From a virus: a DNA stretch of 64,000 nucleotides. The translations under genes were made by a program, and so were the position numbers. The stretch lies in the IMG/VR virus record IMGVR_UViG_3300020421_003230, positions 32,001-96,000 of that record, one strand, 5' to 3'. Under the pieces are notes generated by a model. It was not told the DNA's origin and made no database searches. It saw only the letters and a list, made by a program, of their open reading frames with translations. Positions within the stretch are counted from its first letter, which is position 1; each line of letters opens with the position of its first letter. Shown here piece by piece: positions 3 to 49,247 of the stretch.

Positions 3-1769
3 TTTTATATTGATAATCAATATCGTGAAACACTTTTACACTCTGCAGAAGAAAAGAAAAACATTTTTAAGATTGCACAATCATATGGATACAAACCAAA
101 ATTAAGTTCACCTGCAACTGCTATATGTTCTTTATCAGTACAGGTTCCTGCTATTCAAGTGGGTGATTCATATCAGGCAGATTTAAACTATGCTCCTACT
201 ATTGATGCTGATAGTACATTACAATCAACAGGTGGAACATCATTTAGATTAGTAGATGATATTAACTTCAAGGCATCAAGTTCATTAGATAATATGATTA
301 CTGAAGTATCACAAACATCTGGTACTAATCCAACACATTTTAAATTAACTAAATCTGCAATTGCTAAATCAGGAACAAAAACTTCTCAGAATTTTTCATT
401 TGGAAATGCTGTTAAGTTTGATAAAATTATTTTAAACAACAATGATATAATTGATATTATCAGTTGTGTTGATAGTAACGGAGATGAATGGTACGAGGTT
501 CCTTTCCTTGCACAAGATACAGTATTTAGTTCTATAGAAAATACAGATTTAAATAGTCCTGATTTATCTTCATTCAAAAAGGAATCACCATTTTTATTAA
601 AGTTAATTAAAACTTCTAAGAGATTTACAAGATATATTAGAAGTGATGGTAAAACAGAAATTAGATTTGGTGCTGGTGTTAGTAATAATGCTGATGAAGA
701 AATTATACCTAATCCAGATAATGTTGGTAGTTCACTTGGTACAGGTTTATCTAAACTTGATGAATCGTTTGACCCAAGTAATTTCTTGAAAACACAAACT
801 TATGGATTAGCACCAAGTAATACAACACTAACAATTACTTATACACATGGTGGTAGTATAAAAGATAATGCACCATCAAATACAATATCTAATTTAGATG
901 AAGTTAACTTCACAATAGATGAATCAGGATTAGATAGTACAGCTATTACTGATATGAAATCAAGTTTATCAGTAAACAATTCAACACCAGCAACTGGTGG
1001 TTCAAGTGGTGAAACTATAGAAGAAGTTAGACAAAATGCATTGGCATATTTTAATTCACAGAACAGAGCTGTTACTAAGGAAGATTATATTATTAGAACA
1101 TATTCCTTACCACAAAAGTTTGGTAACATTGCAAAAACTTATATTGTACAAGATGAACAATTAGAAGAATTTACTAATCTAATTATGCAAGATGGAAAGA
1201 TTGTAAAGAATGCAGGAAGTACTGCTATTCCAAATCCACTGGCACTAAATATGTATGTGTTGGGTTACGATGCAAAAAGTAATCTTGTTAGTTTGAATAG
1301 GGCAGTAAAACAAAATTTAAAAACATATTTATCTGAATATAGATTAATGACAGATGCGATTAATATTAAGAATGCTTACATTGTAAATATTGGTGTAAGA
1401 TTCTCAATCATTACACAACGAGGATTTAACAAGAACGAAGTATTATTACGATGTGTTGATGAGATGAAGAAACACTTTGATGTTAAGAAGTGGCAGATAG
1501 GGCAACCGATTATTCTAAGTGATGTTGCTTACAAACTTTCATTAGTGGATGGTGTGGCAAGTGTTGTTCCACCAGCAGATGATAATCCACAGAAACAAAT
1601 GGTTGTTATTGAAAATAAATTCCAAACTTCAAGTGGGTATAGTGGTCATGTATATGATATGCAATCAGCTACAAAAGATGGTGTGATATATCCATCATTA
1701 GACCCATGTATCTTTGAAGTAAAATTCCCGAACATAGATATTTCGGGTAGAGTAATAGGAGATATTTAA
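3..1769 (+). CDS. Baseplate wedge subunit, T4 gp6-like (5'-truncated by the window edge)
   Basis: Frame is open from base 3 (FYIDNQYRETLLHSAEEKKNIFKIAQSYGYKPK), upstream of the GTG at 159 used in the ORF track. gp6/baseplate-J type motifs: 'IRFGAG', 'ATGGSSGETIEEVRQNA', 'QNRAVTKEDY'. Confidence 0.85.
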   Translation, partial: FYIDNQYRETLLHSAEEKKNIFKIAQSYGYKPKLSSPATAICSLSVQVPAIQVGDSYQADLNYAPTIDADSTLQSTGGTSFRLVDDINFKASSSLDNMITEVSQTSGTNPTHFKLTKSAIAKSGTKTSQNFSFGNAVKFDKIILNNNDIIDIISCVDSNGDEWYEVPFLAQDTVFSSIENTDLNSPDLSSFKKESPFLLKLIKTSKRFTRYIRSDGKTEIRFGAGVSNNADEEIIPNPDNVGSSLGTGLSKLDESFDPSNFLKTQTYGLAPSNTTLTITYTHGGSIKDNAPSNTISNLDEVNFTIDESGLDSTAITDMKSSLSVNNSTPATGGSSGETIEEVRQNALAYFNSQNRAVTKEDYIIRTYSLPQKFGNIAKTYIVQDEQLEEFTNLIMQDGKIVKNAGSTAIPNPLALNMYVLGYDAKSNLVSLNRAVKQNLKTYLSEYRLMTDAINIKNAYIVNIGVRFSIITQRGFNKNEVLLRCVDEMKKHFDVKKWQIGQPIILSDVAYKLSLVDGVASVVPPADDNPQKQMVVIENKFQTSSGYSGHVYDMQSATKDGVIYPSLDPCIFEVKFPNIDISGRVIGDI

Positions 1770-2929
1770 TGCATTATTTTGAATACCCGATAACTGATAC
1801 AACAATTTATGAGGGAAATGTAACTTCATCAATCAATACAGGCTTAGACCAAATATTAGAAGTAGAGAAGAATATAAACTCTTCAGGTACTACTATTTCA
1901 GTATCTCGTATATTAATGAAGTTTGATTATTCTTATATTTCACAATCAATACAAGATGGTATTATTCCAAGTACTGCAAAATTCTATTTGAATCTATATG
2001 ATGCAAGTTCAGAAGAGTTGGCAGTAGAACAATCACTACATGCTTACATAATTAGTGGAAGTTGGAATGGTGGAACAGGAACCAAAGATAGGAGTCCAGC
2101 ACTAAGTGATGGTGCTAGTTGGAAGTATCGTGATAATGATACAACCAAATCTACATGGATGGGTGGAACCGATACTAATCAAGGTGGTAGTTGGTTTACA
2201 AGTTCTGTATCACAATACAATGTTAGTGCATCAGAAAATTTAGTTTATGAAACAAAAGATATAAGAATGGATGTAAGTGGTTTGGTTAAGAATCACATCT
2301 ATAGTGGTTCAACATATCCAAACAATGGTTTTATAATCAAGAGAGAAAATCTACACACATCATCAAGTAGATATTCTATCTTTGACCCTGCAACTGCTAC
2401 TGGTTCGGCTGAACATGATACGAATCCATTAGGACAACTAAAGTTTTTCTCAAGAGAAACAAATACAATCTTTCCACCTAAGTTAGAAATTGAGTGGGAT
2501 GATTCAAGTTGGAATACAGGTAGTTTAAGTGCTTTGGGTTCAACAGATTTAGAAAACTTAACAATTTATTTTAAAGGGTTAAGAGATGAATACAAACAAA
2601 ACTCAAAAGTGAAGTTTAGAATTGTAGGTCGTGAATTATATCCTACTCGTGGATTCGATACTACACCAGCAGCATTGACTGTTAAAACATTACCAAGTGG
2701 TAGTACATTTTATTCTGTGGTTGATTCTTTAACTGATGATGTATTAATACCATTCGGTACTGGCTCACTTGTAAGTTGTGATTCACAAGGAAACCAATTT
2801 AATTTATGGATGAATGGGTTTATGCCAGAAAGGCACTACAAATTCCAAATTAAAGTAGTGAGTGGAAGTGGAGCAGATGAAACTTCACAAGTATATGATG
2901 ATGGATTTGAATTTAAAGTGGTGAGATAA
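1769..2929 (+). CDS. Putative virion structural protein (DNRLRE-like beta-sandwich)
   Basis: 'DTTIYE...SRILMKFD...AKFYLNL...NNGFII...KFFSRE...PKLEIEW' pattern resembles DNRLRE/CBM96-like domains; coupled to gp6-like gene through TAATG overlap. Confidence 0.55.
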   Translation: MHYFEYPITDTTIYEGNVTSSINTGLDQILEVEKNINSSGTTISVSRILMKFDYSYISQSIQDGIIPSTAKFYLNLYDASSEELAVEQSLHAYIISGSWNGGTGTKDRSPALSDGASWKYRDNDTTKSTWMGGTDTNQGGSWFTSSVSQYNVSASENLVYETKDIRMDVSGLVKNHIYSGSTYPNNGFIIKRENLHTSSSRYSIFDPATATGSAEHDTNPLGQLKFFSRETNTIFPPKLEIEWDDSSWNTGSLSALGSTDLENLTIYFKGLRDEYKQNSKVKFRIVGRELYPTRGFDTTPAALTVKTLPSGSTFYSVVDSLTDDVLIPFGTGSLVSCDSQGNQFNLWMNGFMPERHYKFQIKVVSGSGADETSQVYDDGFEFKVVR

Positions 2930-2930
2930 A

Positions 2931-3227: not shown

Positions 3228-3712
3228 TGCCGTATACAATTAAACAAGCAAAGAAACAAGATTTCTATCGTAATGTTCAAGATGCAGATGAACAAAAACA
3301 TTTGAAAAGACTTGAGGAAGATAAGAAGAGAGCTCAGATATCTGGTTCTGCTATCGATGCAACTAATCCATTACGAGATGAGGATGGTTCATTACTATCT
3401 TATGAAGACCCTTTCAATATTTCAAGAAGTGGTAAACCAATATCATTAGAAGAACCATTTCAGTATGTAAGAATACCATTAACACAAAAATCATCTACCT
3501 ATAGTTTATTTTATAAATTTATAGATGATAAGAATAAGTTTAGTGAATTCTTACCAAACATAGTAGAAGAAGAAGAACCTGAAGTAACACCAGAAGAATT
3601 AGAAACATTAAGAACACAATTAGAAACTGATGTTGCAACACAACAAGAATTAAATACTACATTGGAAACTGAAATAGCAAATCTACAACAAAGAATACAG
3701 GACCTTCAATAA
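3227..3712 (+). CDS. Hypothetical protein with C-terminal coiled coil
   Basis: 161 aa; acidic heptad-rich C-terminus; TAATG-coupled on both sides. Confidence 0.7.
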   Translation: MPYTIKQAKKQDFYRNVQDADEQKHLKRLEEDKKRAQISGSAIDATNPLRDEDGSLLSYEDPFNISRSGKPISLEEPFQYVRIPLTQKSSTYSLFYKFIDDKNKFSEFLPNIVEEEEPEVTPEELETLRTQLETDVATQQELNTTLETEIANLQQRIQDLQ

Positions 3713-6700
3713 TGTTACAATACGGATTAACACCTAAAGATAAAGAACAATTTGAATCACCTAAAGAACTCTACACAGGTTTTGGTAGAGGACAGCGTGA
3801 TTATATTCATATCTATGTATATGATTCTGAAGATAAGTTTTTACAAGAAGAAATCTTTCCTGTAAGTGAGATTGATATATCAAGTGATGAAAGAGTTGCT
3901 GATATTGATGTTGGTACACATCTTCGTGATATGGGGTATACTGAAGGTCAGTACAAAGTTAAATATCTTTTCTTAAGAAGATTAGCTGGTAAAGACCAAA
4001 CCGTATTTGTAAATGATGAGGGATTCGTACATACAAATAAAGTTCAAACTAAATTAATAAATGGTGAAACAAAATATTATGCTACAAAGAAATTTGGTAA
4101 AAGACAATCACGACAAGAACTAAAACAAATATTTCCAAAAGAATTAAAATATGTTGTAAAGAAAATATCTTCGGATAGAACAGAGGTGGAAGTTGATACT
4201 CAAGAGATTCAAAATACTTTATACAATAAGAATTTTAGAGAAATCAATAAGATGATTAACTACACACCAACCATGTCAAGGTTGTTGCCAGGTGCTGGAA
4301 ACATTAGGTTTGATTTGACGGATAAGAATGTATTGATTGCGGAGTTGAATAGTGGTGATAGAGGATTTACGGATGATATGGTTGGTGGTATTATTACTAT
4401 CAAAAATGTTTATTCAATAGAGGCTCAAACACTTGAACCAACACCACCGCCACCACCACCAAGAGGTGTAGTACAACCATCACCTGAAAATGTTGAAGTT
4501 GTTAATCAACAATTAAATTCAGAACCAAGACCATTAATGGAAATGGTAGAAGAACAAGTACAAGATTATGAACAAGGTAATTTTGATGATGATAGATATG
4601 GTAGTGTTTGTTTTCATGGTGATACAAGAATTAAATTAAATAACAATCGTTCCATACCAATTAAAATGATTAAACCAGGTATGAGAGTAAAAACAGAATT
4701 AGGATATGCAAAAGTTCTTAAGGTTGTTAAAGATGGTAGACCTGATGGAGAGAAGTTGGTAAAGTTTGGTAGATTAATTACTACAGATAACCATCCAATT
4801 AAACATCGTGGTCAATGGCATTTAGCAAAAGAAGTTGGTACACAATTTAAATCAAATTCATTAGAAGTATGGAATTTAATATTAGATAAACATCATACAA
4901 TTTATGCTAACAATATAGTTAGTGCTACACTTGGTAAATGGAATAGTATAGAACATTTCTTACGAGTAAAAGATAATCGTATTAATATGTTAAGACCTAT
5001 GCGTGAAAGTGATAATGGTGATGGAACTTTTACTGAAGAGAGTATCCCACAATCAAATGCATATCTATCTGATAATGAAGTAGTTGTTAAAGATATACCA
5101 CCTACTGTCGATAGATTTTTTGTAGAAACTAAAATGTTTGAGGCTGCTGCACTTGGAACACCAATTCCAACACCAGAACCATCAACAAGAATCTCACTTG
5201 ATTATAAAGCAAAAATTGTAGAGGTATTAGATTACAATCGTGTTCGTGTTAACATCTCATATGAAGAGGGTGCTAACAAACAAGGACATAGTGGTGAAGA
5301 TAATGCTAATAAGATATTTGATGATGGGTTCATGGTTAACTTTACAAAATCAGATATTGTAAGATTAAATACTTACCTTGTTGTTAATGGTACTTATAAC
5401 TTAGTTACAAATACTATGGATAACAAAGATGGTAGTTCTCGTTATTTTAAATTATTTGATAAGTTACCTGATGAAGTAAATGAATTTGATTTATGTTATT
5501 TTGTAGAAGAGAAAATGGATTCATATAATGATGTAGTTAAGTTGGTTCCGTTTGTAGAGGATGAAGATGAAGTTTTATTTTTAAGACTACCTGATTTTAA
5601 TTCTGTAAGTAATCCTATTAGTATGAGGTCTACACACTTCAATACATTTAATGATTTGGTTGGTACAGATACAACTGTAAAACAAGATATACAAAATAAA
5701 GTTCTATCTTCAAGTTTATTAGATGTACAAGTAAATGTAGATTACACTAAGAGAACAGATATTATAGACCCATTGGTAAATGATTATGGGTTTGGTAATT
5801 TCATAATGTTTGGAAGTGCAGAAAAAAGAATACAAAATTTTAAAAAGAAAGTAGAATTAATTGAAACATATACATCATCAAGTTTATCGATAGCAAATGT
5901 TACAGGTTCTGCTAATACTAAACTTGAATTTGATAATAAGAAAAGAAGAGTAATAAATTCTTTTGACCCGTATGAAAATTTTCTATATTTTGAAAGTTCT
6001 TCATATGCCTCAAGTTCAATTGGAGAGTTCAATGATGCAAGTTGGCCAAAAGAAACTTCTACAGAACCTTACACTTTAGTTCACACAAGTGGTTCTAATG
6101 CTATCAGTTGGTTTAACACTTGGACTGGATATGCAAAAGATTATGATAGATTGAATCGTGAAAGATTAGTTAATAATTTACCACTTCATGTTAGTGCTGA
6201 TGTAGAAAATAATTTCTTCTTAGATTTTATGGATATGACTGGACAACAATTTGATGAGATATTTGTTTACTTAAGACACTTCACAGATATCAACGAAAGA
6301 ACAAGTAAGTTGAGTGAGGGTATCTCAAAAGATATTGTACAAGAGGTTGCTAAATCTATGGGAATAGATGTGGTGAATGGTAATGATTTATTAATCTTAC
6401 CGAAGTACCTATTAGGTAAAGATGCTGATGGTACAAGTTTATTTGAAACACCACAAGAAAAGGTAACGGAAGAAATATGGAAAAGAATTTTAGCTAACTC
6501 ACCTTTCTTCATGAAAACAAAAGGAACTAAGAGAGCATTAAAAGGATTAATGAATTGTTATGGTATACCAAGTACTATACTAAGAGTAAGAGAATATGGT
6601 GGGCCTGATAAAGGAACTGCTGTTAGTTATGATTTTAAAAGAAAGTTTACATATGCATTAGATTTTAAATCAAGTGAGTATTTAGAGTTGCCATGGAAAG

Positions 6701-8520
6701 ATGATTCTAATTCTATGAAACCACAAACTATTGAGTTTAGATTTAGAACACCTAAATCACAAGACCAAGTATTATTACACAAAGGTGTAGGTAATGATAG
6801 TTTTGCTATTCAGTTACAAGATAATGGAGAAACTGATGATTATGGTCATTTACAATTTGCACTTAGTTCTTCTGTAGGTGTTACTTATATTACATCATCA
6901 CTACAACCATTTTACAATGATGATATGTGGAGTGTGATGTTAACAAGAAAATCTTCAAGTGGTGCAGATTTAACTACAGATACTCATACACAAAAAATTA
7001 AATATGAATTAACAACAAAACAATATGATGCCACAAGAGAAGTGATACTTCACCAAACAAGTGAAAGTGTTGTATTAGATGGTAGTACATCAGCCAATGC
7101 TTATAATAATGGATTTGTTACAGATGGTAATATCTATCTTGCTGGTAGTGGTAGTTCAGGATACTTTACTGATTTTAGTGGTTCACTAATGGAGTTCAGA
7201 TTATGGAACGAACATATTTCACAAAGTGTATTTGATAATCATGTAAGAGCACCAAAATCATACAATGGAAATACAACATCATCATATTATGATAATTTAC
7301 AATATAGATTACCATTAGATAATAATGTTAATTTAAATTCAAATCCAAGTGGAGCATTAGATGTTGCAAATGCTAAGTTGTATCACACAAGTGCAAGTGC
7401 TCATGGATTTAGTGGAAATCAATTTAGAAGTTTTGTTGATAAAGAACAAATGAGAGTTCCTAATCTTGGGCCTCAAAGAAGAAATGCTACAAAGATTAGA
7501 ATTGAAGATACAACATTAAATGGTTCACTATCATCTAATGTTCGTAGGGAAGCCTCATCACAAGATTTTGCACCAATTGATAGTAATAAGTTAGGAATTT
7601 ATTTTTCACCATCGGATGTTGTGAATGAAGATATTATTTATTCGTTAGCTGATTTTGATTTTGATAATCAAGTTGGTGACCCAAGAGACCAATATAAATT
7701 ATCTTACAGAGGATTACAATATGCTCAAGATAATTATTGGAAAAAATATGATAGAACTAATAACTTTTGGGATTATATGAGAATCATAAACTTTTATGAT
7801 AATAGTTTATGGACACACTTAAGAAAGTTATCACCAGCAAGAGCTAACACTACATTAGGTTTATTAATAGAACCAAATATTTTAGAGAGAAGTAAAGAGA
7901 TTGTAGGTCAACCACCTGAATTTACAAATGAGTATTTTGAAAATGCAGGACACTTTGATTTTGGAGTACAATTAACTTCAAGAGAAACAAGTTCGTTTGG
8001 GCATGTACCATTTAGTTTCAATGGTGAGTATAGAATGTTTGGACAAAGTGTTACAGATATGAAAGATGGTAGAATTAATTTACATAATACTGAGAGTGGT
8101 TCTCTTGGTAGTTTAGGTTTACCATCATTGGTACATTTAAATGAAATAAATCCAAGAAGTGAATTTAGTACTACATATGCAACTGCAAGTATTACATTTG
8201 GTGGTACAACAACAGAGTTTGTTGAAACCGTACAACCTTTCATTAGTGCCTCAAGAGTATCAGAACACAATGAGATTAAAAGATTATTTTTCACGAGTTC
8301 AATTGATGCCAATACTAATAATCCAGAGAGTTCATCTTTCGAACCTGCTGAGTTTCAGAGTATGGCATATGAATCAAAACTTTTTAGACTTTTTTATAAA
8401 GGTCAATTATTAACAAAGGATAATACAATAGATGGAAAAGACCCTGTCGAGATAACTATAACTTCACCAACAAAACTTGTAACACAAGAGCCTGGTGAAA
8501 GTAAACTTAAAGTTGAATAA
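3712..8520 (+). CDS. Large baseplate/tail protein with internal Vint-type Hint domain and LamG-like domain
   Basis: Hint region aa ~300-408 (CFHGDTRIKL..TTDNHPI..VWNLILDKHHTIYANNIVSATLG). 'KTKGTKRALKGLMNCYG' resembles baseplate/tail-I type motifs. LamG-like 'TIEFRF...FSGSLMEFRLWN'. Structural gene context. Confidence 0.7.
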   Translation: MLQYGLTPKDKEQFESPKELYTGFGRGQRDYIHIYVYDSEDKFLQEEIFPVSEIDISSDERVADIDVGTHLRDMGYTEGQYKVKYLFLRRLAGKDQTVFVNDEGFVHTNKVQTKLINGETKYYATKKFGKRQSRQELKQIFPKELKYVVKKISSDRTEVEVDTQEIQNTLYNKNFREINKMINYTPTMSRLLPGAGNIRFDLTDKNVLIAELNSGDRGFTDDMVGGIITIKNVYSIEAQTLEPTPPPPPPRGVVQPSPENVEVVNQQLNSEPRPLMEMVEEQVQDYEQGNFDDDRYGSVCFHGDTRIKLNNNRSIPIKMIKPGMRVKTELGYAKVLKVVKDGRPDGEKLVKFGRLITTDNHPIKHRGQWHLAKEVGTQFKSNSLEVWNLILDKHHTIYANNIVSATLGKWNSIEHFLRVKDNRINMLRPMRESDNGDGTFTEESIPQSNAYLSDNEVVVKDIPPTVDRFFVETKMFEAAALGTPIPTPEPSTRISLDYKAKIVEVLDYNRVRVNISYEEGANKQGHSGEDNANKIFDDGFMVNFTKSDIVRLNTYLVVNGTYNLVTNTMDNKDGSSRYFKLFDKLPDEVNEFDLCYFVEEKMDSYNDVVKLVPFVEDEDEVLFLRLPDFNSVSNPISMRSTHFNTFNDLVGTDTTVKQDIQNKVLSSSLLDVQVNVDYTKRTDIIDPLVNDYGFGNFIMFGSAEKRIQNFKKKVELIETYTSSSLSIANVTGSANTKLEFDNKKRRVINSFDPYENFLYFESSSYASSSIGEFNDASWPKETSTEPYTLVHTSGSNAISWFNTWTGYAKDYDRLNRERLVNNLPLHVSADVENNFFLDFMDMTGQQFDEIFVYLRHFTDINERTSKLSEGISKDIVQEVAKSMGIDVVNGNDLLILPKYLLGKDADGTSLFETPQEKVTEEIWKRILANSPFFMKTKGTKRALKGLMNCYGIPSTILRVREYGGPDKGTAVSYDFKRKFTYALDFKSSEYLELPWKDDSNSMKPQTIEFRFRTPKSQDQVLLHKGVGNDSFAIQLQDNGETDDYGHLQFALSSSVGVTYITSSLQPFYNDDMWSVMLTRKSSSGADLTTDTHTQKIKYELTTKQYDATREVILHQTSESVVLDGSTSANAYNNGFVTDGNIYLAGSGSSGYFTDFSGSLMEFRLWNEHISQSVFDNHVRAPKSYNGNTTSSYYDNLQYRLPLDNNVNLNSNPSGALDVANAKLYHTSASAHGFSGNQFRSFVDKEQMRVPNLGPQRRNATKIRIEDTTLNGSLSSNVRREASSQDFAPIDSNKLGIYFSPSDVVNEDIIYSLADFDFDNQVGDPRDQYKLSYRGLQYAQDNYWKKYDRTNNFWDYMRIINFYDNSLWTHLRKLSPARANTTLGLLIEPNILERSKEIVGQPPEFTNEYFENAGHFDFGVQLTSRETSSFGHVPFSFNGEYRMFGQSVTDMKDGRINLHNTESGSLGSLGLPSLVHLNEINPRSEFSTTYATASITFGGTTTEFVETVQPFISASRVSEHNEIKRLFFTSSIDANTNNPESSSFEPAEFQSMAYESKLFRLFYKGQLLTKDNTIDGKDPVEITITSPTKLVTQEPGESKLKVE

Positions 8521-21427: not shown

Positions 21428-21456
21428 TTTTTTGTACTCCTTCTGATATATATTAT

Positions 21457-21468
21457 TAACTATAGTTA
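21457..21468. promoter_or_regulatory. Perfect 12-bp palindrome TAACTATAGTTA
   Basis: Seen directly in the 225-bp non-coding gap ahead of the replication genes; function inferred only. Confidence 0.3.
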
Positions 21469-21632: not shown

Positions 21633-21652
21633 CTTTAAAAAAAAGGTTTTTT

Positions 21653-40615: not shown

Positions 40616-41774
40616 AGAATATGATGTTTATTATACCACAGGTGGTGGTACTTTAGTTGGTGGAGGTGCCGATGTTTGGGTTAACAATTGGATAAAAGAA
40701 ATAGCACCGAAATTAAATGTAACACCAAAGTTGATGATTCATAGAAATCGTCCTAAAGTTGAATGGAGTTTAGAACAACATAAAAAGTTTGAAGATAAAG
40801 TAAAGAAAAATCAAAATGTAGGTGAAGGTCGTAGTGTTCATCAACAAATAAAGAAAAATTTCAAAGAGGCTACTAACCAAGATGTCAATCATACTTGGAC
40901 AACACCTAAATCATATACACCAGCACCAGAACTTGAATACTTTTGGCAAGGTGATGATATGGATGAATTTGAAAAAGTAATGAAAGGTGCTAGAAGAATT
41001 CATATTCTACATGGATATTATTCACCACATCGTTATATTACTGAAAACTTAGATAAAATTCATACCAATGCTGTACATTGTGATGTACATAAAGCAATGA
41101 TGGCTCCATTTATTTTGGGTTTAGAAAAATCGTTTCATTTTCATATGGAGAAAAAATGGGAAAATGAAATTGTAGAATCAGCTAAACATCCATTTTGGAT
41201 TGGTGTATCTAAACCTAATTTAAATAAGAATCCCAATCATTTACTACACATACCAAACTATTATGAATTTAAACATAATAAAGATGTTACTGATAATAAT
41301 AGAATTGGTTTTGCTGCAAGAATGGAATCAAGAAAGTGTCCACATTTTTTAGATGGGTTAAAGGCTGATGTTTATACGGATACAAAAGATATTCAATGGT
41401 GGGAAAGAAATGTAAACCTTAATACAAAACTATGGAGAAAGTTTGTTTTCAGATGGGAACATCTTGATAGATTTTATCAAAGGGATTGGGGAATATCACA
41501 CTCGGCACATATTTACGAACCATTTGGATATTCAATATTTCAAGCGGTTGATTGGGGTAAGGTTCCTATATTGGCACACGATTGGTTACCAAAATATGAT
41601 TATCCATTTAGAGCTTCTAATTCTGTAGAGTTTCATGAACAATATAAAAAGTTGTGTGAAGTATCATTAGATGGAAGAAGAAATATATTAAATCCACTTA
41701 GAGAATATTTAACTGAAAAGTTTGATAATAAAGAAGAGTGGGTAGAAAAAATGTTAAAATTATATAATGAGTGA
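40602..41774 (+). CDS. GT-B fold glycosyltransferase (GT4-like)
   Basis: N-terminal 'GGGADVW', 'IGFAARMESRK', and 'EPFGYSIFQA..GKVPI' (the canonical second Glu is Gln here). Confidence 0.75.
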   Translation: MQKIKEYDVYYTTGGGTLVGGGADVWVNNWIKEIAPKLNVTPKLMIHRNRPKVEWSLEQHKKFEDKVKKNQNVGEGRSVHQQIKKNFKEATNQDVNHTWTTPKSYTPAPELEYFWQGDDMDEFEKVMKGARRIHILHGYYSPHRYITENLDKIHTNAVHCDVHKAMMAPFILGLEKSFHFHMEKKWENEIVESAKHPFWIGVSKPNLNKNPNHLLHIPNYYEFKHNKDVTDNNRIGFAARMESRKCPHFLDGLKADVYTDTKDIQWWERNVNLNTKLWRKFVFRWEHLDRFYQRDWGISHSAHIYEPFGYSIFQAVDWGKVPILAHDWLPKYDYPFRASNSVEFHEQYKKLCEVSLDGRRNILNPLREYLTEKFDNKEEWVEKMLKLYNE

Positions 41775-41785
41775 TATTTATTAAC

Positions 41786-42883: not shown

Positions 42884-43612
42884 ATGAATCGAAACATATT
42901 AAATTACGATGCAATAAAATATTTCATCACTAATAATGGTGAAATTGGAAAAGTACCATATCGTTGGACACATGGTGCCACGGATTTACATATGGGTGAT
43001 GGGTTATTAATTTACTCTATCGTACAATTTTATAAATCAAAAACTTGTGTGTGCTTAGGAAGTGGTGGTGGATTCATTCCAAGAATAATATCACAGGCAA
43101 GACAAGATTTACACCGAGATGGTACATTTACAGGTAGTGATAAATATGATTATGGTGATATTGGTTCAACATACATTGTTGATGCAATGAATGGAATAAA
43201 TGGTGAAGTAGATTGGGAAGATAAAGATAGTTTTCTTAATGTTAATTTTTGGCCACAAGTTATAAAAGAAACTACAGAAGATGCATATTATAATTTCTTT
43301 GTAAAGAGAGAAATGAAAATAGATTACTTACACATTGATGCTGACCATACACTTGATGGAGTGAAAAAAGATTTTGAGTTATATTCAAATATATTGAGTA
43401 AAAATGGAATAGTTACAATACATGATACTGATAAAAATTATGTTGATAACTTTTCTGAAATAGAAAATCACAAGGGAGATGATTTATCAGGCCCAAGTGA
43501 ATTTGTAAAAACAATTAATAAGAAAAGGTTCGAAGTATTTAATTTTTTTAATCATGGAATTATGAAAGATAAACCAAGTTCAACAGGACTAACGATTGTG
43601 AGGAAGAAATGA
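42884..43612 (+). CDS. Class I SAM-dependent methyltransferase (Methyltransf_24-like)
   Basis: 'CVCLGSGGG' SAM loop, 'IDYLHIDADHTLDGVKKDF', 'GIVTIHD'. Confidence 0.85.
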   Translation: MNRNILNYDAIKYFITNNGEIGKVPYRWTHGATDLHMGDGLLIYSIVQFYKSKTCVCLGSGGGFIPRIISQARQDLHRDGTFTGSDKYDYGDIGSTYIVDAMNGINGEVDWEDKDSFLNVNFWPQVIKETTEDAYYNFFVKREMKIDYLHIDADHTLDGVKKDFELYSNILSKNGIVTIHDTDKNYVDNFSEIENHKGDDLSGPSEFVKTINKKRFEVFNFFNHGIMKDKPSSTGLTIVRKK

Positions 43613-44466
43613 ATTTAGTTACAATAAGCGGACATCATGTTAATACAATAGAACATATGTTAAATCATTATAAAGATAAAGTAAATGATATTTTTATAGG
43701 AGTACATCGTAATAGTTTATCAGATGAAGATTATGATAGGTTAGTTCAGATTACAAATGATATTGGTTGTGGGATTTACAAGGAATATGATTTTCCACTT
43801 TATCATTGGACTAATGTTACGGATATTTATAATGAAATAAAAATGTTAAAACCAAATGATTGGTGGATTATATCTGATGATGATGAGTTTCATCAATACC
43901 AAAATCCATTAAATGATATAGTTGATAATTGTGAAGATAATGGTTGGAAGTTTGTTACTGGTGCTTTTCTTGATAGAATTTCTATAGATGGTTCTTTGAA
44001 AAAAGTTGAACAAAATATTGATATATCAAAACAATTTCCACTCGGTGGTATGTTTAGGTTTTTAGTTTCAAAGGCATGTCCTAATAAAGTTGTTATGGCT
44101 AAGGGTGATGTACAAGTATCAAGTGGTCAACATTATGCTATTATAGATGGTAAAGAAGTTAGAACAAGAGATAACTCTGAGGTAGCATCAGGTATTGACC
44201 ATCCACAAAGATGTGATTATTTATGGGAGTTTACACAAGTACATCATTACAAGTGGGATGAATCATTAAAGAAAAGGTTAGAGCAGATAGTGAGTATTGA
44301 TGAACAATATACTTATGGTTGGGAATATTCTTTACTTGTTGATTATCTTAATTATCATGGTGGGTTGATAGATATCAATGATAAAAATTTTAAATTACAA
44401 AATATGAATGAATTTCCTAATCACGAATCTTGGGATTATATTAGGGACATTAGTTTGAGGTTTTAG
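43609..44466 (+). CDS. GT-A fold glycosyltransferase (GT2-like)
   Basis: 'HMLNHYK', 'WWIISDDDEF' DxD motif, 'GQH', 'VHHYKW'. Confidence 0.75.
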   Translation: MNLVTISGHHVNTIEHMLNHYKDKVNDIFIGVHRNSLSDEDYDRLVQITNDIGCGIYKEYDFPLYHWTNVTDIYNEIKMLKPNDWWIISDDDEFHQYQNPLNDIVDNCEDNGWKFVTGAFLDRISIDGSLKKVEQNIDISKQFPLGGMFRFLVSKACPNKVVMAKGDVQVSSGQHYAIIDGKEVRTRDNSEVASGIDHPQRCDYLWEFTQVHHYKWDESLKKRLEQIVSIDEQYTYGWEYSLLVDYLNYHGGLIDINDKNFKLQNMNEFPNHESWDYIRDISLRF

Positions 44467-45932
44467 TGGAAGATTATACTTTAGCAATAATAGTACCTTA
44501 TAGAGACAGAAGAAAAGATTTAGATATCTTTGTACCACACATGGATGAGTTCTTATCTGATAAGAATATAGATTATACTATATTTGTAATTGAACAAGAA
44601 GATGATAGGCCATTCAATCGTGGTAAGTTATTGAACATTGGATTTGATTTAATAAAAGATGATTTTGATTACTTTTGTTTTCACGATGTTGATATGTTAC
44701 CAATCAATGATGATTGTGATTATAGTTACGATGATGTACCAATCCACTTAGCATCTGAACTTGAATCGTATAATTATAAATTACCTTATGAACAATTTTT
44801 TGGTGGAGTGGTTTTATTTACAAAAGAAGATTTTATTGAAGTTAATGGATATTCAAATGAGTATTGGGGTTATGGTGTAGAAGATTTAGATATGATGTAT
44901 AGAATAGAAAAGGCTGGATTACAACACGAAGTTCAATATGATATTTCAGGAGTAACAAAACAATTAAGATATAGTTTGAGTGAAGTAAAAGTATCCAATT
45001 CATTAACATCAAAAGAAATAAAATATATAACATTAGATGGTAGTTCATCATTAGTTATAAAAAATGGTAATCCAAAATTATTAAACTTAACTAACAATTC
45101 ATATACACTTAGTGTGTGGGTTAGACCACATGATAAAGGTGAACGAATGCAGGGTATCATATCAAGACCAGGTCATCATTCAGGTATATTTTATAACACA
45201 TCTACTAAAATGATGGAGAGTAAATTTCAATCACAAGTTTGGGATAAGAATAAATTAAATTATATTGTAGACAGAAGTGTTAAGAGTAATGAGTGGTATT
45301 TTGTAACAATGACCTTAGATACTAAAACTAAAAAAATAAAAATGTATGTTAATGGTGTACAAGTTATTGATAAATTTAATAGACAAGAATTAGAAGAAGA
45401 GTTGTTTGATTATGAAACTCGTTCTTGGTTCATTGGTAATTCATACGCAAATAAAAATCCTTTTATTGGAGATATTGCTGATGTTAAGATTTATGATAAG
45501 GTGTTAACAGATGAAGAAGTAGAACAAGAATATTTTGGTGGGATAGATATAAAACCATTAGTGAATATAGATTTTTCTAAAGGATATAGAAACACTTACT
45601 TTGATGTAACAAGTAACCATTGTAACTTAATGATTTCTACTGATAATATTTTACCATACAAAACAGAAACTATAAAACTTGGGAATGAATATCCAATACC
45701 AGTTAGAAAAAATGGTAGATACAAATGTTTAAAACATAAAGGTGATAATCAGATTTTAGAAAAATATGATTCGTTTGACCCTGATATTGAAGCAAACTTA
45801 GAAATATTTTTTGAAGACATAAGAACTGATGAGGTAGATTATAAAACTATTGGATTAAATAATTTAAGTTATAAAATACTTGATAGAGAAACTTTTCAAG
45901 ATAGGCACGAATGGGTAAAGGTAGTAACATGA
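44466..45932 (+). CDS. GT7 beta-1,4-galactosyltransferase-like protein with inserted LamG domain
   Basis: IIVPYRDR, FNRGKLLNIGF, FHDVD, FGGV, NGYSNEYWGYGVED; LamG insert (YTLSVWV..EWYFVTMT..MYVNG..FIGDIADVKIYDKVLT); GT7 tail GRYKCLKH..GLNNLSY. Confidence 0.9.
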   Translation: MEDYTLAIIVPYRDRRKDLDIFVPHMDEFLSDKNIDYTIFVIEQEDDRPFNRGKLLNIGFDLIKDDFDYFCFHDVDMLPINDDCDYSYDDVPIHLASELESYNYKLPYEQFFGGVVLFTKEDFIEVNGYSNEYWGYGVEDLDMMYRIEKAGLQHEVQYDISGVTKQLRYSLSEVKVSNSLTSKEIKYITLDGSSSLVIKNGNPKLLNLTNNSYTLSVWVRPHDKGERMQGIISRPGHHSGIFYNTSTKMMESKFQSQVWDKNKLNYIVDRSVKSNEWYFVTMTLDTKTKKIKMYVNGVQVIDKFNRQELEEELFDYETRSWFIGNSYANKNPFIGDIADVKIYDKVLTDEEVEQEYFGGIDIKPLVNIDFSKGYRNTYFDVTSNHCNLMISTDNILPYKTETIKLGNEYPIPVRKNGRYKCLKHKGDNQILEKYDSFDPDIEANLEIFFEDIRTDEVDYKTIGLNNLSYKILDRETFQDRHEWVKVVT

Positions 45933-46231: not shown

Positions 46232-46454
46232 AAAAAACAATTACGAAGAAAGAGCCACTAAGGCACTTGAAAGTATTGCAGATTCATTTCAAACCATAGA
46301 GGATTCAGTACTTGATGTTGATTTTCCTATGTGGAGTGAAAGATTAGAATGGTACTTAAATGAATTCTTCAAAATTGCACAACAAAGAACTATTGGTAGT
46401 TCGAATAGACCAACTGTAGATAGAGAACGAAATATTGATGAAACAAAAGAATAA
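46224..46454 (+). CDS. Hypothetical protein
   Basis: 76 aa; AAGGAG RBS. Confidence 0.65.
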   Translation: MSEKNNYEERATKALESIADSFQTIEDSVLDVDFPMWSERLEWYLNEFFKIAQQRTIGSSNRPTVDRERNIDETKE

Positions 46455-47826
46455 ACTTGGGGTTGTAGTTCCATATAGAAATAGGGAATCACACTTAAAA
46501 AGATTTATTCCATACATTAAAAATTACTTGATTGAGAATGGTATTGATTTTGAAATCATAGTTGTAGAACAAGATGATAAAAAACCATTCAATCGTGGTA
46601 AGTTACTCAATATTGGATTTGAGTTATTAGAATCTGATTGTAATTATTTTGTATTTCACGATGTTGATATGTTGCCTGTAGATGCAGATTATAGTTATGT
46701 GGATAAACCAATTCATATGGCAACACAATTAAGTAATGAAAATTATGAATTACAATTTCCATCTTACTTTGGTGGTGTAACTTTATTCAATAGAGATGAT
46801 TTTAAAACTATAAATGGTTATTCCAACGAATACTTTGGTTGGGGATTTGAAGATGATGATTTACTATATCGTTGTGTAAAAAAAGAATTACCTATAGATA
46901 CAAAAATATTTGGAAACAATAGTAGAATGAATTATTCTATGAAATTTAATGGTGATTCTGATTACATAGAAATAGATTCGCCACATCTATTTAATTTTTT
47001 AAAAAATGATTTTACAATTTATATTAGTGGTAAACCAAAAAATATAATTCTTGATAAAAATAATAAAAATGATTACGATGAGTATTTTTTTATATCACAA
47101 CCTGGTTACAATAGTGGATTATCATTTACAAGTTTTAATAGATATAAATCAGAACTATGGAACAAAGATAAAAAATCAGTATCTATAAATTCTGAGATAA
47201 CAGGAGAACATTGGGTTCAGTTATGTTTAACAAAAAAAAATAATTTATTAAGTTTTTATATTGATGGTAAGTTGGTAGATAGTAAATCAATAGATAGTGT
47301 TTATGATTATGGTAATGTACCATTTTACATTGGATGTGCTAATCCTAAATCTATGTTTTTTAAAGGGATGATTTCAGATGTTGCATTGTGGAATAAATCA
47401 TTATCCGAAACACAAATAGAAGAAATAGTAAATGAGAGTTTACCAATAACAAAAACCACACCTGAAGAATTGTTGGTTTATTATGATTTTAAAAATATTA
47501 TAAACGATAAGGTTATTGATTTAAGTGGAAAAGATATTCATGGTAAGTTAAATGGTTGCCAACAAATTGAATATGATAGTAAACAAAAAAGTTCTATACC
47601 AATACCATATAGAAGAGAGGGTAGGTTTCAAGTATTATCACATAAAAGAAATTCTTGGAATGGTATGAAGTGGATTGATAAATTAACAAGATTAAATCAG
47701 TTAAAATTTTTTAATGAAGTAAGAACAGATTTGTTTGATATGAATATTGAGGGATTAAATACACTTCGATATAAAATTACTAATGAAGAAACATTTGAAA
47801 ACTATAGAAAGGTATCAGTACAATGA
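46438..47826 (+). CDS. GT7 galactosyltransferase-like protein with inserted LamG domain
   Basis: VVPYRNR, FNRGKLLNIGF, FHDVD, NGYSNEYFGWGFEDDD, LamG (FNGDSDYI..FYIDG..FKGMISDVALWN), GRFQVLSH..GLNTLRY. Confidence 0.9.
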   Translation: MKQKNKLGVVVPYRNRESHLKRFIPYIKNYLIENGIDFEIIVVEQDDKKPFNRGKLLNIGFELLESDCNYFVFHDVDMLPVDADYSYVDKPIHMATQLSNENYELQFPSYFGGVTLFNRDDFKTINGYSNEYFGWGFEDDDLLYRCVKKELPIDTKIFGNNSRMNYSMKFNGDSDYIEIDSPHLFNFLKNDFTIYISGKPKNIILDKNNKNDYDEYFFISQPGYNSGLSFTSFNRYKSELWNKDKKSVSINSEITGEHWVQLCLTKKNNLLSFYIDGKLVDSKSIDSVYDYGNVPFYIGCANPKSMFFKGMISDVALWNKSLSETQIEEIVNESLPITKTTPEELLVYYDFKNIINDKVIDLSGKDIHGKLNGCQQIEYDSKQKSSIPIPYRREGRFQVLSHKRNSWNGMKWIDKLTRLNQLKFFNEVRTDLFDMNIEGLNTLRYKITNEETFENYRKVSVQ

Positions 47827-49247
47827 AACATAAGTTAGGTGTATGTGTTCCATATAGAGATATTGGAGATGGAGTTCGTAAAGGTCATTTGGATAGATTG
47901 GTTCCACATTTAGAAAAGTTTCTTGGTGAACAAAATATAGAGTTTAGAGTTTATATAGGCCATCAAGTAGATGATAAATTATTTAATCGAAGTGGAACAA
48001 AGAATGCGGCATTTCTTGCTGCCATCGAAGATGGTTGTGATTATGTTGCAATGCATGATGTTGATATGTTACCTGAAGATGATAAGTGTGATTATAGTTA
48101 TCCAACAGATTATCCAAGACATATTGCTTGTTATCTATCACAATGGGATTATAACTTAAGAGATGTAGAATACTTTGGTGGTGTAATACTTTTTACTAAA
48201 GAACAATTTCTTGATGTGAATGGATACAATCCTGATTATTGGGAATGGGGTATGGAAGATGATGACTTATTTTGGAGATGTGTTAAAAAGGGTTATACAC
48301 CAAAAACTTTTATAGATGGGCCAGGTAAAACAAAAGCATTATATTTTAACGGAGTAGATGACCATATTATTGTACCACCAAGTAGAACTTTAAGAAATAT
48401 CAATAGTAGGTCATTTCAGATTGATATAACTCTAAGAGGTGAGTTACCAGATAGGTTTCAAGAATATTTAATTGGTAATTTAAATAGTAGAAAATATATT
48501 GATTTTCCAATTATAAATCGTAAGGGTTGGGATTTTAATATTGGATATAATAATAGTAGAGCATTTTCCACTACGATGTGGACATGGAGAAATGAATTAA
48601 TTTATACATGGGCAAAACGATATCCTAATAAATGGACTAAACTAACTTTAAAAGTTGATGATAGAAATAAAGAAGTTAGGTTTTTAATCAATGATAAAGA
48701 AACTGATGCAAGACATGGTACAGGTGCTGAATCACCTTTTGTATATAAAGATGGATTGAAGAGATATGGTGGAGTACCATTTACTATTGGAAAGGCACAT
48801 TCAAGTGGACAAGTGGATTCTAAATATAAACATTTTCAAGGATACATACAAGAAATAAAAATTATAGATATGAGAGATAACTTAGTACTACATTATGATA
48901 TGAGTAAATCAATTGATGGTATTCAAGTAAAAGATTTAAGTGGTAATGAAAATCATGGTGAGTTACATGGTGGTGAATTAAGAGATGTAGAGATTGATAA
49001 GTTTTATGATACTGATGTACCACATAGGAGTTTTGGTAGAATGAATTGTATGTATCATGATGATGTTGGTATAGTAAATGATAAGTTTACTTTAGATACT
49101 ACACAAAAAAATGAAGAGTTATATAGGTTACAAATGCAAAAAGATAAAATTAATATAGATGAGGTTGGAGTTAAACAACAAAAATACAAAATAATTAGTA
49201 AAGAAGATATTTATGATAGACACCAAATTATAAATGTGAGGTTTTAA
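47823..49247 (+). CDS. GT7 galactosyltransferase-like protein with inserted LamG domain
   Basis: HKLGVCVPYRD, FNRS, DYVAMHDVDMLP, NGYNPDYWEWGMEDDD, LamG (LYFNGVDDHI..FQGYIQEIKI..DLSGNENHG), GRMNCMYH. Confidence 0.9.
   Translation: MKHKLGVCVPYRDIGDGVRKGHLDRLVPHLEKFLGEQNIEFRVYIGHQVDDKLFNRSGTKNAAFLAAIEDGCDYVAMHDVDMLPEDDKCDYSYPTDYPRHIACYLSQWDYNLRDVEYFGGVILFTKEQFLDVNGYNPDYWEWGMEDDDLFWRCVKKGYTPKTFIDGPGKTKALYFNGVDDHIIVPPSRTLRNINSRSFQIDITLRGELPDRFQEYLIGNLNSRKYIDFPIINRKGWDFNIGYNNSRAFSTTMWTWRNELIYTWAKRYPNKWTKLTLKVDDRNKEVRFLINDKETDARHGTGAESPFVYKDGLKRYGGVPFTIGKAHSSGQVDSKYKHFQGYIQEIKIIDMRDNLVLHYDMSKSIDGIQVKDLSGNENHGELHGGELRDVEIDKFYDTDVPHRSFGRMNCMYHDDVGIVNDKFTLDTTQKNEELYRLQMQKDKINIDEVGVKQQKYKIISKEDIYDRHQIINVRF

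What the first reader, a model, noticed from the sequence alone, without database searches (positions are those of the whole stretch)
1769..49247. [S/T]-G-S tripeptide enrichment in virion proteins plus beta4GalT7-like enzymes: candidate proteoglycan-like virion glycosylation system
Seen (hand counts): [S/T]GS occurs 7 times in the 386-aa protein at 1769, 7 times in the 337-aa protein at 10431, 4 times at 9415, about 5 times at 3712, 3 times at 39533 and about 20 or more times in the tail fibre, with many SAS/SSS/TAS variants. I found none in the Gly-rich 954-aa secreted protein, none in the gp6-like protein, and almost none in the enzymes. Seen: the three GT7 proteins carry motifs such as HKLGVCVPYRD, FVPHM and DYVAMHDVDMLP, which resemble animal beta4GalT7. 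Established: beta4GalT7 extends Xyl-O-Ser at Ser-Gly sites of proteoglycans. Inference: [S/T]GS is a sequon for phage-encoded O-glycosylation that coats the baseplate and fibres, using the downstream GT2/GT4/GT7/TEK enzymes.
Basis: partly seen in the sequence, partly recalled or inferred. Interest (0 to 1): 0.82.

Follow-up and report, generated by a model that had tools for sequence, protein, structure and literature searches.

The report
Ser-Gly-Ser motif in phage tail proteins
The outer tail proteins of a group of aquatic T4-like phages carry far more Ser/Thr-Gly-Ser motifs than chance allows, and the motifs are kept by selection; they may be sugar-attachment sites, but this is unproven and does not look proteoglycan-like.

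Summary
The hand counts are exact. Five baseplate/virion proteins hold 26 [ST]GS against 4.35±2.0 in shuffles (0 of 2000 shuffles reached 26). SGS is the most over-represented of all tripeptides. The enrichment depends on residue order (SGS 17, GSS 2, SSG 5). The sites are better conserved than the rest of the proteins.

The same enrichment is seen in Flavobacterium phage immuto, Microcystis phage Mel-JY01 and uncultured relatives. It is absent from T4 and RM378 and weak in LR756508.

The three GT7 proteins are real, but they match beta4GalT1 and beta4GalT7 equally. Immuto and Mel-JY01 have the motif without GT7. The flanks are not acidic, and no GT14, GT2 or GT4 was found on this contig.

All five complete enriched genomes carry a conserved GT4-like gene, in tandem with a second GT4 where I looked. 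Immuto DNA has no glycosylated base (PMC10516641).

Odds: O-glycosylation acceptor about 0.38, plain structural turn about 0.35. The question can be tested on cultured phages.

The parts
3..1769 (+). gp6-like baseplate wedge protein (5' end lies outside the window); 0 [ST]GS
   Evidence: PHROG baseplate wedge families phrog_219 and phrog_6. 0 motifs against 0.65 expected.
1769..2929 (+). 386-aa baseplate-region protein with 7 [ST]GS (residues 96, 179, 211, 250, 310, 331, 365)
   Evidence: 55 distinct IMG/VR homologues average 6.8 motifs against 0.77 expected. Site 250 is shared with immuto and Mel-JY01.
3712..8520 (+). 1602-aa baseplate-region protein with a Vint/Hint domain; 5 [ST]GS
   Evidence: Pfam Vint E 3e-19. 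26 homologues average 6.0 motifs against 1.41 expected.
9415..10419 (+). 334-aa protein, paralogue of the next gene; 4 [ST]GS (residues 76, 118, 174, 277)
   Evidence: In the AF2 model, site 174 forms the last three residues of strand 170-176. No fold match.
10431..11444 (+). 337-aa protein; 7 [ST]GS (residues 28, 39, 47, 178, 197, 246, 273)
   Evidence: Among 120 homologues, site 178 is kept in 120 and site 197 in 119. Motif residues are 0.874 conserved against 0.594 overall. AF2 model.
26505..39533 (+). 4342-aa tail fibre; 25 [ST]GS against 14.1 expected (modest, little order specificity); collagen-like G-[SA]-D runs
   Evidence: Pfam Peptidase_S74 and CBM_5_12.
39533..40615 (+). 360-aa protein with weak, sub-threshold Hint-domain matches; 3 [ST]GS (borderline)
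   Evidence: P 0.048. PHROG 38766 'virion structural protein', E 3e-10.
40602..41774 (+). 390-aa protein, possibly a GT-B glycosyltransferase (lead only)
   Evidence: No Pfam or NCBIfam match. Protein-atlas features are nearest to viral Glycos_transf_1 and AGT clusters. A homologue lies beside a Hint-protein homologue in LR756508.
42884..43612 (+). Methyltransf_24-type SAM methyltransferase, first gene behind a promoter-like ATATTTAT motif at 42862
   Evidence: Pfam E 4e-10. Motif positions.
44466..45932 (+). GT7 (beta4GalT-like) glycosyltransferase with a ConA-like lectin (Laminin_G_3) domain
   Evidence: PDB matches at E 1e-37. DVD motif present. 1685 metagenomic relatives.
46435..47826 (+). 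GT7 glycosyltransferase with a Laminin_G_3 domain
   Evidence: BLASTP E 3e-8 to Corndog gp37.
47823..49247 (+). GT7 glycosyltransferase (no Pfam lectin match)
   Evidence: No tblastn match in 50,697 phage records.
49248..55715 (+). Four radical-SAM genes (49248, 51627, 53135, 54495) and one gene of unknown function (50782)
   Evidence: Pfam over the cut-off for 49248 and 54495 (the latter also SPASM); below the cut-off for 51627 and 53135. 49248 matches NCBIfam N_Twi_rSAM at E 4e-97.

Best explanation
[ST]-G-S, or more loosely [ST]-[G/A/S]-S, is a short motif kept by selection. It sits at strand ends and in loops of the outer baseplate proteins, and less clearly in the fibres, in one clade of aquatic T4-like phages.

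I think its single most likely function is as an acceptor site for O-glycosylation of these tail proteins in the infected cell, by glycosyltransferases that the phage encodes. A pair of GT4-family enzymes conserved across the clade would add the first sugar. The variable sugar gene blocks would then extend and decorate it. In this phage those blocks hold three GT7 (beta4GalT-like) enzymes, two with lectin domains, a methyltransferase, radical-SAM enzymes and a UDP-sugar dehydrogenase.

Shown: the enrichment, its dependence on residue order, its conservation, its distribution among phages, GT7 family membership and the gene order. Inferred: that any sugar is attached at all, which enzyme would start the chain, and that the GT4 pair lies in the missing third of this genome.
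For: 1. Order-specific 5-10-fold enrichment limited to tail proteins. It recurs in immuto, Mel-JY01, ten further viral contigs and the complete genome G019. It is absent from T4 (8 observed against about 11.9 expected, my sum of the values, over 27 proteins) and from RM378. It is weak in LR756508.
2. Sites are conserved more than their surroundings. Ser inside motifs scores 0.92 against 0.53 outside.
3. Between distant relatives the sites turn over while their density is kept. Of 47 site columns, 35 are in one species, 7 in two and 5 in three. Immuto's sheath has 7 against 1.28 expected, while T4 gp18 has 0.
4. Substitutions keep the hydroxyl residues and vary the small middle residue: SGS to SSS, SAS, TAS or TSS.
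5. A GT4-like gene is present in 5 of 5 complete enriched genomes: immuto, Mel-JY01, G017, G018 and G019. It is also in G005. It is absent from RM378 and LR756508. Among 50,697 phage records it is found only in the four immuto records and Mel-JY01. It is shared by phages whose hosts belong to different phyla.
6. LC-MS of immuto DNA found canonical dA, dC and dT, with fdPreQ1 replacing dG (PMC10516641, section 18 and Table 1, passages read). Its GTs therefore do not glycosylate DNA bases in bulk.
7. The sugar gene block lies between the fibre and head genes. It follows the same promoter-like motif as the fibre and baseplate genes. Corndog, a phage reported to have a glycosylated virion, likewise has its GT genes among its structural genes. 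Its gp37 is a distant relative of the window's GT7.
8. 5 of 11 modelled sites lie in low-confidence loops.
Against: No glycan has been observed on any phage of this clade.

The link between the GT4 gene and the motif rests on one clade, so it may reflect a single evolutionary event.

The GT4 pair was not found on this 122-kb contig. The contig is 67% complete, and in G005 the gene lies about 78 kb from the baseplate genes.

6 of 11 modelled sites lie at or within 4 residues of a strand end, and the flanks are hydrophobic. This is what a plain beta-turn would show.

Two p9415 sites are also kept in LR756508, and one of them in RM378; both phages lack the GT4 gene.

In immuto's spikes SGS is part of a longer structural repeat.

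Non-virion proteins do not avoid the motif.

Head proteins are not enriched (2 against 2.2), unlike the capsid glycan shield reported for mycobacteriophages.

This phage and immuto share no GT at BLASTP E <= 1e-4.
Confidence: 0.38

Rival explanations
1. A plain structural motif with no modification. Gly followed by Ser is a favoured two-residue beta-hairpin turn (type II', recalled textbook knowledge). The outer tail proteins of this clade are beta-rich and use it often, so conservation would reflect folding or subunit contacts.
For: Sites sit at or next to strand ends: p9415 site 174 lies inside strand 170-176, and p10431 sites 39, 178 and 197 lie within 2 residues of strands. Hydrophobic residues are enriched at -1 and -2 and charged residues are depleted. 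Gly is invariant at several sites. Two p9415 sites persist in LR756508, and one of them in RM378, without the GT4 gene. Immuto's spike motifs belong to a longer repeat. Non-virion proteins do not avoid the motif.
Against: T4's beta-rich baseplate and fibre proteins show no enrichment and no order preference (SGS 5, GSS 3, SSG 7). A general turn preference therefore does not produce this signal. At many sites Gly is replaced by Ser or Ala while the flanking Ser is kept, which fits poorly with a turn that needs Gly. New sites arise at non-homologous positions in each lineage, including in immuto's sheath protein (7 against 1.28 expected), whereas T4's own sheath gp18 has 0.
Confidence: 0.35
2. 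The motif serves another function that needs exposed hydroxyls. Examples are a different modification (phosphorylation, acylation by the GDSL-type enzymes, a radical-SAM-dependent change) or direct binding of a ligand, metal or host polysaccharide.
For: The same selection signals as above. This phage encodes radical-SAM enzymes and a GDSL-like protein near the tail genes.
Against: BLASTP of this phage's proteins against immuto found none of the radical-SAM genes shared and only one island gene shared. tblastn against the two Mel-JY01 stretches fetched found no island gene shared. Both phages have the motif. I know of no enzyme family that recognises this motif (recalled; no specific search was made).
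Confidence: 0.1
3. One reading: proteoglycan-like glycosylation, with Xyl-O-Ser at Ser-Gly sites extended by beta4GalT7-like enzymes.
For: The three proteins are true GT7 members with an intact DVD motif. Ser-Gly is the core of animal glycosaminoglycan attachment sites (recalled).
Against: The proteins are equally similar to beta4GalT1. No GT14 match was found on the contig. The flanks are not acidic, and only 2 of 26 sites read SGxG. The motif is equally enriched in phages without GT7.
Confidence: 0.03
4. A chance or composition artefact, or an effect of a DNA-level signal.
For: The motif was chosen after looking at the sequence. The proteins are rich in Ser, Thr and Gly.
Against: 0 of 2000 shuffles reached the observed count. 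SGS ranks first among all tripeptides. Permutations with the same composition are not enriched. 15 different 9-base codings are used for the 26 sites. The result is replicated in independent genomes.
Confidence: 0.01

Closest known systems
Virion O-glycosylation of mycobacteriophages (Che8, Corndog, Myrna; Freeman et al. 2023). The paper itself was not held; it is known to me only through passages in PMC12619734, PMC11256854 and PMC12363180, and from recall.
   Same: Phage-encoded glycosyltransferases and a Methyltransf_24-type methyltransferase lie among the structural genes (Corndog gp35-38). Corndog gp37 is a distant relative of the window's GT7 (BLASTP E 3e-8). The reported glycosylated subunits end in -TGS, -DGS, -VGS and -GDS, that is, Ser next to Gly.
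   Different: In mycobacteriophages the glycans are reported at the C-termini of capsid and tail-tube subunits. Here the candidate sites are internal, lie in baseplate and fibre proteins, and no ORF of this genome ends in -GS or -GDS (0 of 110). tblastn found no relative of Corndog gp38, the GT reported as essential. No glycan has been shown here.
Animal beta4GalT7 and the proteoglycan linkage region
   Same: GT7 fold and motifs (Pfam 7N and 7C, DVD). Ser-Gly in the candidate sites.
   Different: No closer to beta4GalT7 than to beta4GalT1. No GT14 xylosyltransferase family match. The flanks are hydrophobic, not acidic. Two of the three enzymes carry a ConA-like lectin domain that the solved animal enzymes lack.
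Virus-encoded cytoplasmic glycosylation of chlorovirus PBCV-1 capsid protein, and glycosylation of serine-rich repeat adhesins by GtfA/GtfB (both recalled; no call)
   Same: Glycosylation in the cytoplasm by dedicated enzymes without the usual membrane pathway. The GtfA/GtfB targets are Ser-x-Ser repeats with a small middle residue, like [ST]-[GAS]-S.
   Different: No sequence relation was tested. The chlorovirus glycans are N-linked. The adhesin repeats are long low-complexity tracts, not single sites in folded beta proteins.
Glycan hypermodification of phage DNA (Pyle et al.; bioRxiv 10.1101/2023.12.21.572611 and PMC13326640, both seen only in a search listing)
   Same: Large sets of GT genes in phage genomes. 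p40602 has protein-atlas features near T4 alpha-glucosyltransferase clusters (a lead).
   Different: No thymidylate-synthase-like hydroxymethylase or TET/JBP match on this contig (the TET search matched none of its control genomes either, so it is uninformative). Immuto DNA shows no glycosylated nucleoside. The gene block lies among late structural genes.

Membership tests
GT7 (beta-1,4-galactosyltransferase family) | Pfam Glyco_transf_7N plus Glyco_transf_7C above the curated cut-off | tested here: met
   All three proteins: 7N at 87.6, 77.4 and 58.3 bits; 7C at 78.5, 68.0 and 71.6 bits.
GT7 (beta-1,4-galactosyltransferase family) | Sequence similarity to solved beta4GalT catalytic domains, with the DxD metal-binding motif | tested here: met
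   phmmer E 1e-37 over residues 4-173. DVDM is present in all three.
beta4GalT7 subfamily (xylose acceptor) | Closer to beta4GalT7 than to other GT7 members | tested here: not met
   133.2 bits to beta4GalT1 against 133.1 bits to beta4GalT7. Only p44466 was searched.
beta4GalT7 subfamily (xylose acceptor) | Transfers Gal to Xyl-O-Ser | not testable with these tools
   Needs an enzyme assay.
Proteoglycan-type attachment system | A peptide O-xylosyltransferase (GT14, Pfam Branch) to start the chain | tested here: inconclusive
   No PF02485 match on the 122-kb contig. The contig is only 67% complete, and many island genes have no family match.
Proteoglycan-type attachment system | Ser-Gly(-x-Gly) sites with nearby acidic residues (consensus recalled) | tested here: not met
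   Charged residues make up 0.04-0.20 of positions -1 to -4, against a background of 0.23. Hydrophobic residues are enriched upstream in the relatives and the fibre. 2 of 26 sites read SGxG.
Phage virion O-glycosylation (mycobacteriophage type) | Phage-encoded GT genes placed with the structural genes | tested here: met
   The GT7 genes lie between the fibre (26505) and the downstream head genes, behind the same promoter-like motif.
Phage virion O-glycosylation (mycobacteriophage type) | Relative of the GT reported as essential (Corndog gp38 / Che8 gp110) | tested here: not met
   tblastn of all 110 ORFs against Corndog 1-40 kb matched only the gp37 region. Che8 gp110 lies outside the stretch I fetched, so it was not tested.
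Phage virion O-glycosylation (mycobacteriophage type) | Glycan on C-terminal residues of capsid and tail-tube subunits | tested here: not met
   0 of 110 ORFs end in -GS or -GDS. Head-region ORFs are not enriched (2 against 2.2).
Phage virion O-glycosylation (mycobacteriophage type) | Glycans physically present on virion proteins | not testable with these tools
   Needs staining or mass spectrometry of virions.

The most novel reading that the evidence does not exclude
A large clade of aquatic T4-like phages includes cultured Flavobacterium and Microcystis phages and 237-287-kb uncultured genomes. In this reading, the clade O-glycosylates its own host-recognition apparatus (outer baseplate, fibres and, in some members, the sheath) at internal [ST]-[GAS]-S sites. 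A conserved GT4 pair starts the glycan. Highly variable gene blocks then build strain-specific glycans; these blocks hold GT7-lectin fusions, radical-SAM enzymes and methyltransferases. This would be the first sequon-directed protein glycosylation system described in phages.
Probability: 0.3. Interest if true: 0.85.

Novelty: new variant of a known kind. Interest (0 to 1): 0.62.

Why it matters
As far as my four literature searches on virion glycosylation and the motif show, phage virion glycosylation has been demonstrated only in mycobacteriophages, at subunit C-termini.

A motif-directed glycan coat on the tail tip of abundant marine and freshwater myoviruses would change how we think about three things: host recognition, resistance of virions to proteases and grazers, and the purpose of the large GT gene blocks seen in aquatic phage genomes.

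Even if no sugar is attached, a clade-specific, order-specific three-residue motif that is both conserved and repeatedly regained is an unexplained constraint on tail proteins. Two cultured phages carry it, so a simple experiment can decide.

Tried and rejected
Composition artefact: rejected.

DNA-level motif: rejected. 15 different 9-base codings are used for the 26 sites.

General property of T4-like tail proteins: rejected by the T4 control.

Fold assignment. AF2 models of p10431 (mean pLDDT 65.7) and p9415 (67.7) gave no Foldseek PDB match at E <= 0.001. The VIA-align wide search gave a best Z of 3.6. Sequence searches of the PDB with p9415, p1769 and alignment A1 found nothing below E 0.1.

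Avoidance of the motif in non-virion proteins: not seen. The 18-against-30.1 figure for the remaining ORFs of G019 is biased, because I had removed the 24 most enriched ORFs first. I do not use it.

GT7 co-occurrence among close relatives. PF02709 scored over the cut-off in 3 of 14 contigs searched (L044 was not held). All are fragments, 21-66% complete, so its absence elsewhere is uninformative.

Independent lineages carrying GT7-lectin genes: none found. 10 of 11 large GT7-lectin contigs hold the p9415 family (L118, L124 and L142 were not held).

Shared module with Corndog. Window 43609 against gp36 and 42884 against gp35 show no pairwise similarity.

DNA-modification enzymes. PF00303 was absent from G000. 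The PF12851 search matched none of its control genomes, so it says nothing.

PDB search with the GT4-like protein: nothing significant.

Literature. 'Mel-JY01' gave 0 papers. No paper on a Ser-Gly-Ser motif in phage tails appeared among the 8 listed of 3,966 loose matches.

Full report
WHAT THE WINDOW IS. The window is bases 32001-96000 of a 122-kb, about 67%-complete contig of an uncultured virus. G+C is about 30% and nearly all genes are on the + strand. It encodes T4-type gp25, terminase, portal and prohead protease and a gp6-like baseplate wedge protein. Its nearest cultured relatives are Flavobacterium phage immuto and Microcystis phage Mel-JY01. More distant relatives are the 484-kb uncultured phage LR756508 and Rhodothermus phage RM378.

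The gene order is as follows. The gp6-like gene comes first, followed by four proteins without Pfam families (1769, 3712, 9415, 10431). An operon of secreted-looking proteins follows, then a 4342-aa fibre and two Hint-domain proteins. Then comes a long block with sugar-related genes, followed by the head genes. That the four unnamed proteins are virion parts is inferred from their position and synteny, not shown directly.

Every hand count is exact. The five proteins 1769, 3712, 9415, 10431 and 39533 hold 26 [ST]GS against 4.35 +/- 2.02 in composition-preserving shuffles, and 0 of 2000 shuffles reached 26. The 18 other proteins upstream of the fibre hold 2 against 3.06, and the 22 downstream proteins hold 1 against 2.55.

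Because the motif was picked by eye, I scanned all tripeptides. SGS is the single most over-represented one (17 against 2.41), and in the four small proteins SGS and TGS rank first and second. Permutations with identical composition are not enriched: SGS 17 against GSS 2 and SSG 5; TGS 9 against 1-5. Clustering of Ser, Thr and Gly in loops is therefore not the cause. 15 different 9-base codings are used for the 26 sites, so it is not a DNA signal.

The fibre's excess is modest (25 against 14.2, P 0.004) and shows little order preference. Its strongest tripeptides, DGS, GSD and SDG, come from collagen-like G-[SA]-D runs and from 'DGSN' turns.

Across the whole contig, the only other enriched ORF is a 242-aa protein outside the window. 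It lies upstream of the baseplate genes and has three TGS near its C-terminus.

THE SITES ARE UNDER SELECTION. Among 120 listed homologues of p10431 (51-98% identical, out of 1125 found), the seven sites are kept in 120, 119, 105, 97, 88, 87 and 70 sequences. The homologues average 6.9 motifs against 0.73 expected. Motif residues are 0.874 conserved against 0.594 for all columns, and 0 of 10,000 random sets of seven triplets reached this. Ser inside motifs scores 0.92 against 0.53 outside.

IMG/VR homologues behave the same way: p1769 6.8 against 0.77, p9415 4.2 against 0.66, p3712 6.0 against 1.41. The usual replacements are SSS, SAS, TAS and TSS. The hydroxyl residues stay and the small middle residue varies.

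Between this phage, immuto and Mel-JY01, most sites are not at aligned positions. Of 47 site columns, 35 are in one species, 7 in two and 5 in three. Alignments at 25-40% identity are rough. Still, the density is kept while positions change.

WHERE ELSE IT OCCURS. Immuto's matching baseplate proteins have 3 against 0.52, 5 against 1.27, 4 against 0.59 and 5 against 0.68. Genome-wide, its most enriched ORFs lie in its structural regions: a spike 26 against 5.9, a 373-aa protein 12 against 1.26, and the sheath 7 against 1.28. In the spikes, SGS is part of a longer repeat.

Mel-JY01 shows 11 against 1.38, 9 against 0.60, 6 against 1.42, 5 against 0.58 and more. Ten further viral contigs and the complete 237-kb genome G019 show it too.

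The controls are negative or weak. T4 shows nothing in 27 proteins, including its whole baseplate and fibres, and no order preference. RM378 shows nothing. In LR756508 only the p9415 homologue is enriched (3 against 0.34), while its p1769 and p10431 homologues have 0. The signal is therefore specific to one clade and is not a general property of tail proteins.

STRUCTURE. The AF2 models are of middling confidence. Of 11 sites, 6 lie at or within 4 residues of a strand end; for example, p9415 residues 174-176 are the last three residues of a confident strand. The other 5 lie in segments with pLDDT under 50. Upstream flanks are depleted in charged residues and, in the relatives and the fibre, rich in hydrophobic ones. 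No known fold was matched, and no solved relative exists.

THE ENZYMES. Three proteins are true GT7 members. The first two carry a ConA-like lectin domain. p44466, the one searched, matches beta4GalT1 and beta4GalT7 equally well (133.2 and 133.1 bits), so there is no specific link to the proteoglycan enzyme. The contig gives no match to GT14, GT2 or GT4 families, but many genes in the block have no family at all. p40602 may be a GT-B enzyme, which is only a lead.

GT7-lectin proteins are common in metagenomes (1685 relatives) but absent from 50,697 GenBank phage records. 10 of 11 large viral contigs that carry them also carry the p9415 family. Immuto and Mel-JY01 have the motif without GT7. 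GT7 therefore cannot be the enzyme that reads the motif; at most it extends a glycan.

A CONSERVED GT GENE. Immuto and Mel-JY01 share a syntenic set of GT genes. It includes a roughly 440-aa GT4-like protein, 43% identical at E 3e-112. In G005, a relative of this phage, the gene sits in tandem with a second GT4.

The gene is present in all three 100%-complete GT7-lectin genomes. Among GenBank phages it occurs only in the four immuto records and Mel-JY01. It is absent from RM378 and LR756508. So 5 of 5 complete enriched genomes have it, and 2 of 2 non-enriched or weakly enriched relatives lack it. This is one clade, so the association may reflect a single event.

The gene was not found on this contig. 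In G005 it lies about 78 kb upstream of the baseplate genes, whereas this contig reaches only about 42 kb upstream.

AGAINST A DNA TARGET. LC-MS of immuto DNA found canonical dA, dC and dT plus fdPreQ1 in place of dG (PMC10516641, passages read). Its GT genes therefore do not glycosylate DNA bases in bulk. The GT4 gene is shared by phages of Bacteroidota and Cyanobacteria, which argues for a target that belongs to the phage itself.

In this phage the sugar block lies among late structural genes. A promoter-like word (ATATTTAT) has 12 of its 25 copies in the 7% of the genome that is intergenic. It precedes a baseplate gene, the fibre gene and two genes of the block. That it is a late promoter is inferred.

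THE KNOWN PRECEDENT. Mycobacteriophages are reported to carry O-glycans at the C-termini of capsid and tail-tube subunits (passage; the original paper was not held). Corndog's GT genes lie among its structural genes. Its gp35 is of the same methyltransferase family as window 42884, and its gp37 is a distant relative of the window's GT7. The four reported substrate proteins end in -TGS, -DGS, -VGS and -GDS. This is a resemblance I noticed, not a test.

VERDICT. The proteoglycan and beta4GalT7 reading is not supported. A broader reading remains open: O-glycosylation of tail proteins at [ST]-[GAS]-S sites by phage enzymes. I put it at about 0.38, against about 0.35 for a plain structural turn motif. 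Glycoproteomics of immuto or Mel-JY01 virions would decide between them.

Noticed in passing
immuto NC_055915 49172-53029; Mel-JY01 PP395634 84024-86972; L095 (G005) 1492-4257: A GT4-like gene with neighbouring GT genes is conserved in synteny between phages of Bacteroidota and Cyanobacteria and in three complete 237-287-kb uncultured genomes. It is absent from RM378 and LR756508. In G005 it sits in tandem with a second GT4.
   Followed up: partly
window 26505-39533, fibre residues about 2640-2780, 2889-2900, 3239-3260 and 3381-3400: Short collagen-like runs of G-[SA]-D triplets in the tail fibre explain its DGS/GSD/SDG excess. The fibre also has a recurring 'hydrophobic-x-DGSN' turn.
   Followed up: partly
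window 8536, 11479, 21568, 26467, 42862; beyond the window at 65728, 65734, 74176, 86192: The word ATATTTAT has 12 of its 25 genome copies in intergenic gaps, which make up 7% of the bases. It lies upstream of baseplate, fibre, sugar-block and head-region genes, so it is probably the phage's late promoter core.
   Followed up: partly
genome 27748-28476 (4.2 kb upstream of the window start): A 242-aa protein upstream of the baseplate genes has three TGS in its last 45 residues (3 against 0.04 expected). It has homologues in immuto, Mel-JY01 and LR756508.
   Followed up: no
window 39533-42832; L096 (LR756508) 32499-34887: The pairing of a Hint-domain protein with the 390-aa protein p40602 is conserved in the 484-kb phage LR756508.
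   Followed up: no
L097 (Che8) 5051-5872 and 7613-8422; L098 (Corndog) 20547-21779 and 24316-25131: The capsid and tail-tube proteins of two mycobacteriophages reported as glycosylated end in -TGS, -DGS, -VGS and -GDS. Che8's capsid protein has 3 [ST]GS against 0.21 expected.
   Followed up: partly
window 44466-45932, residues 459-476: After the lectin domain the sequence again aligns weakly with the C-terminal part of beta4GalT1 (GLNxLxY). The lectin may therefore be inserted within the GT7 fold rather than appended to it.
   Followed up: no
window 49248-55715 and L011 6564-8522: There are five radical-SAM genes in the sugar block: one N_Twi_rSAM type, one with an N-terminal SPASM domain and one with a B12-binding domain. 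Two of them score below the Pfam cut-off.
   Followed up: no
immuto NC_055915 147026-149155: Immuto's tail sheath has 7 [ST]GS against 1.28 expected. The sheath-like ORF of this phage has 1 against 0.65, and T4 gp18 has 0.
   Followed up: no
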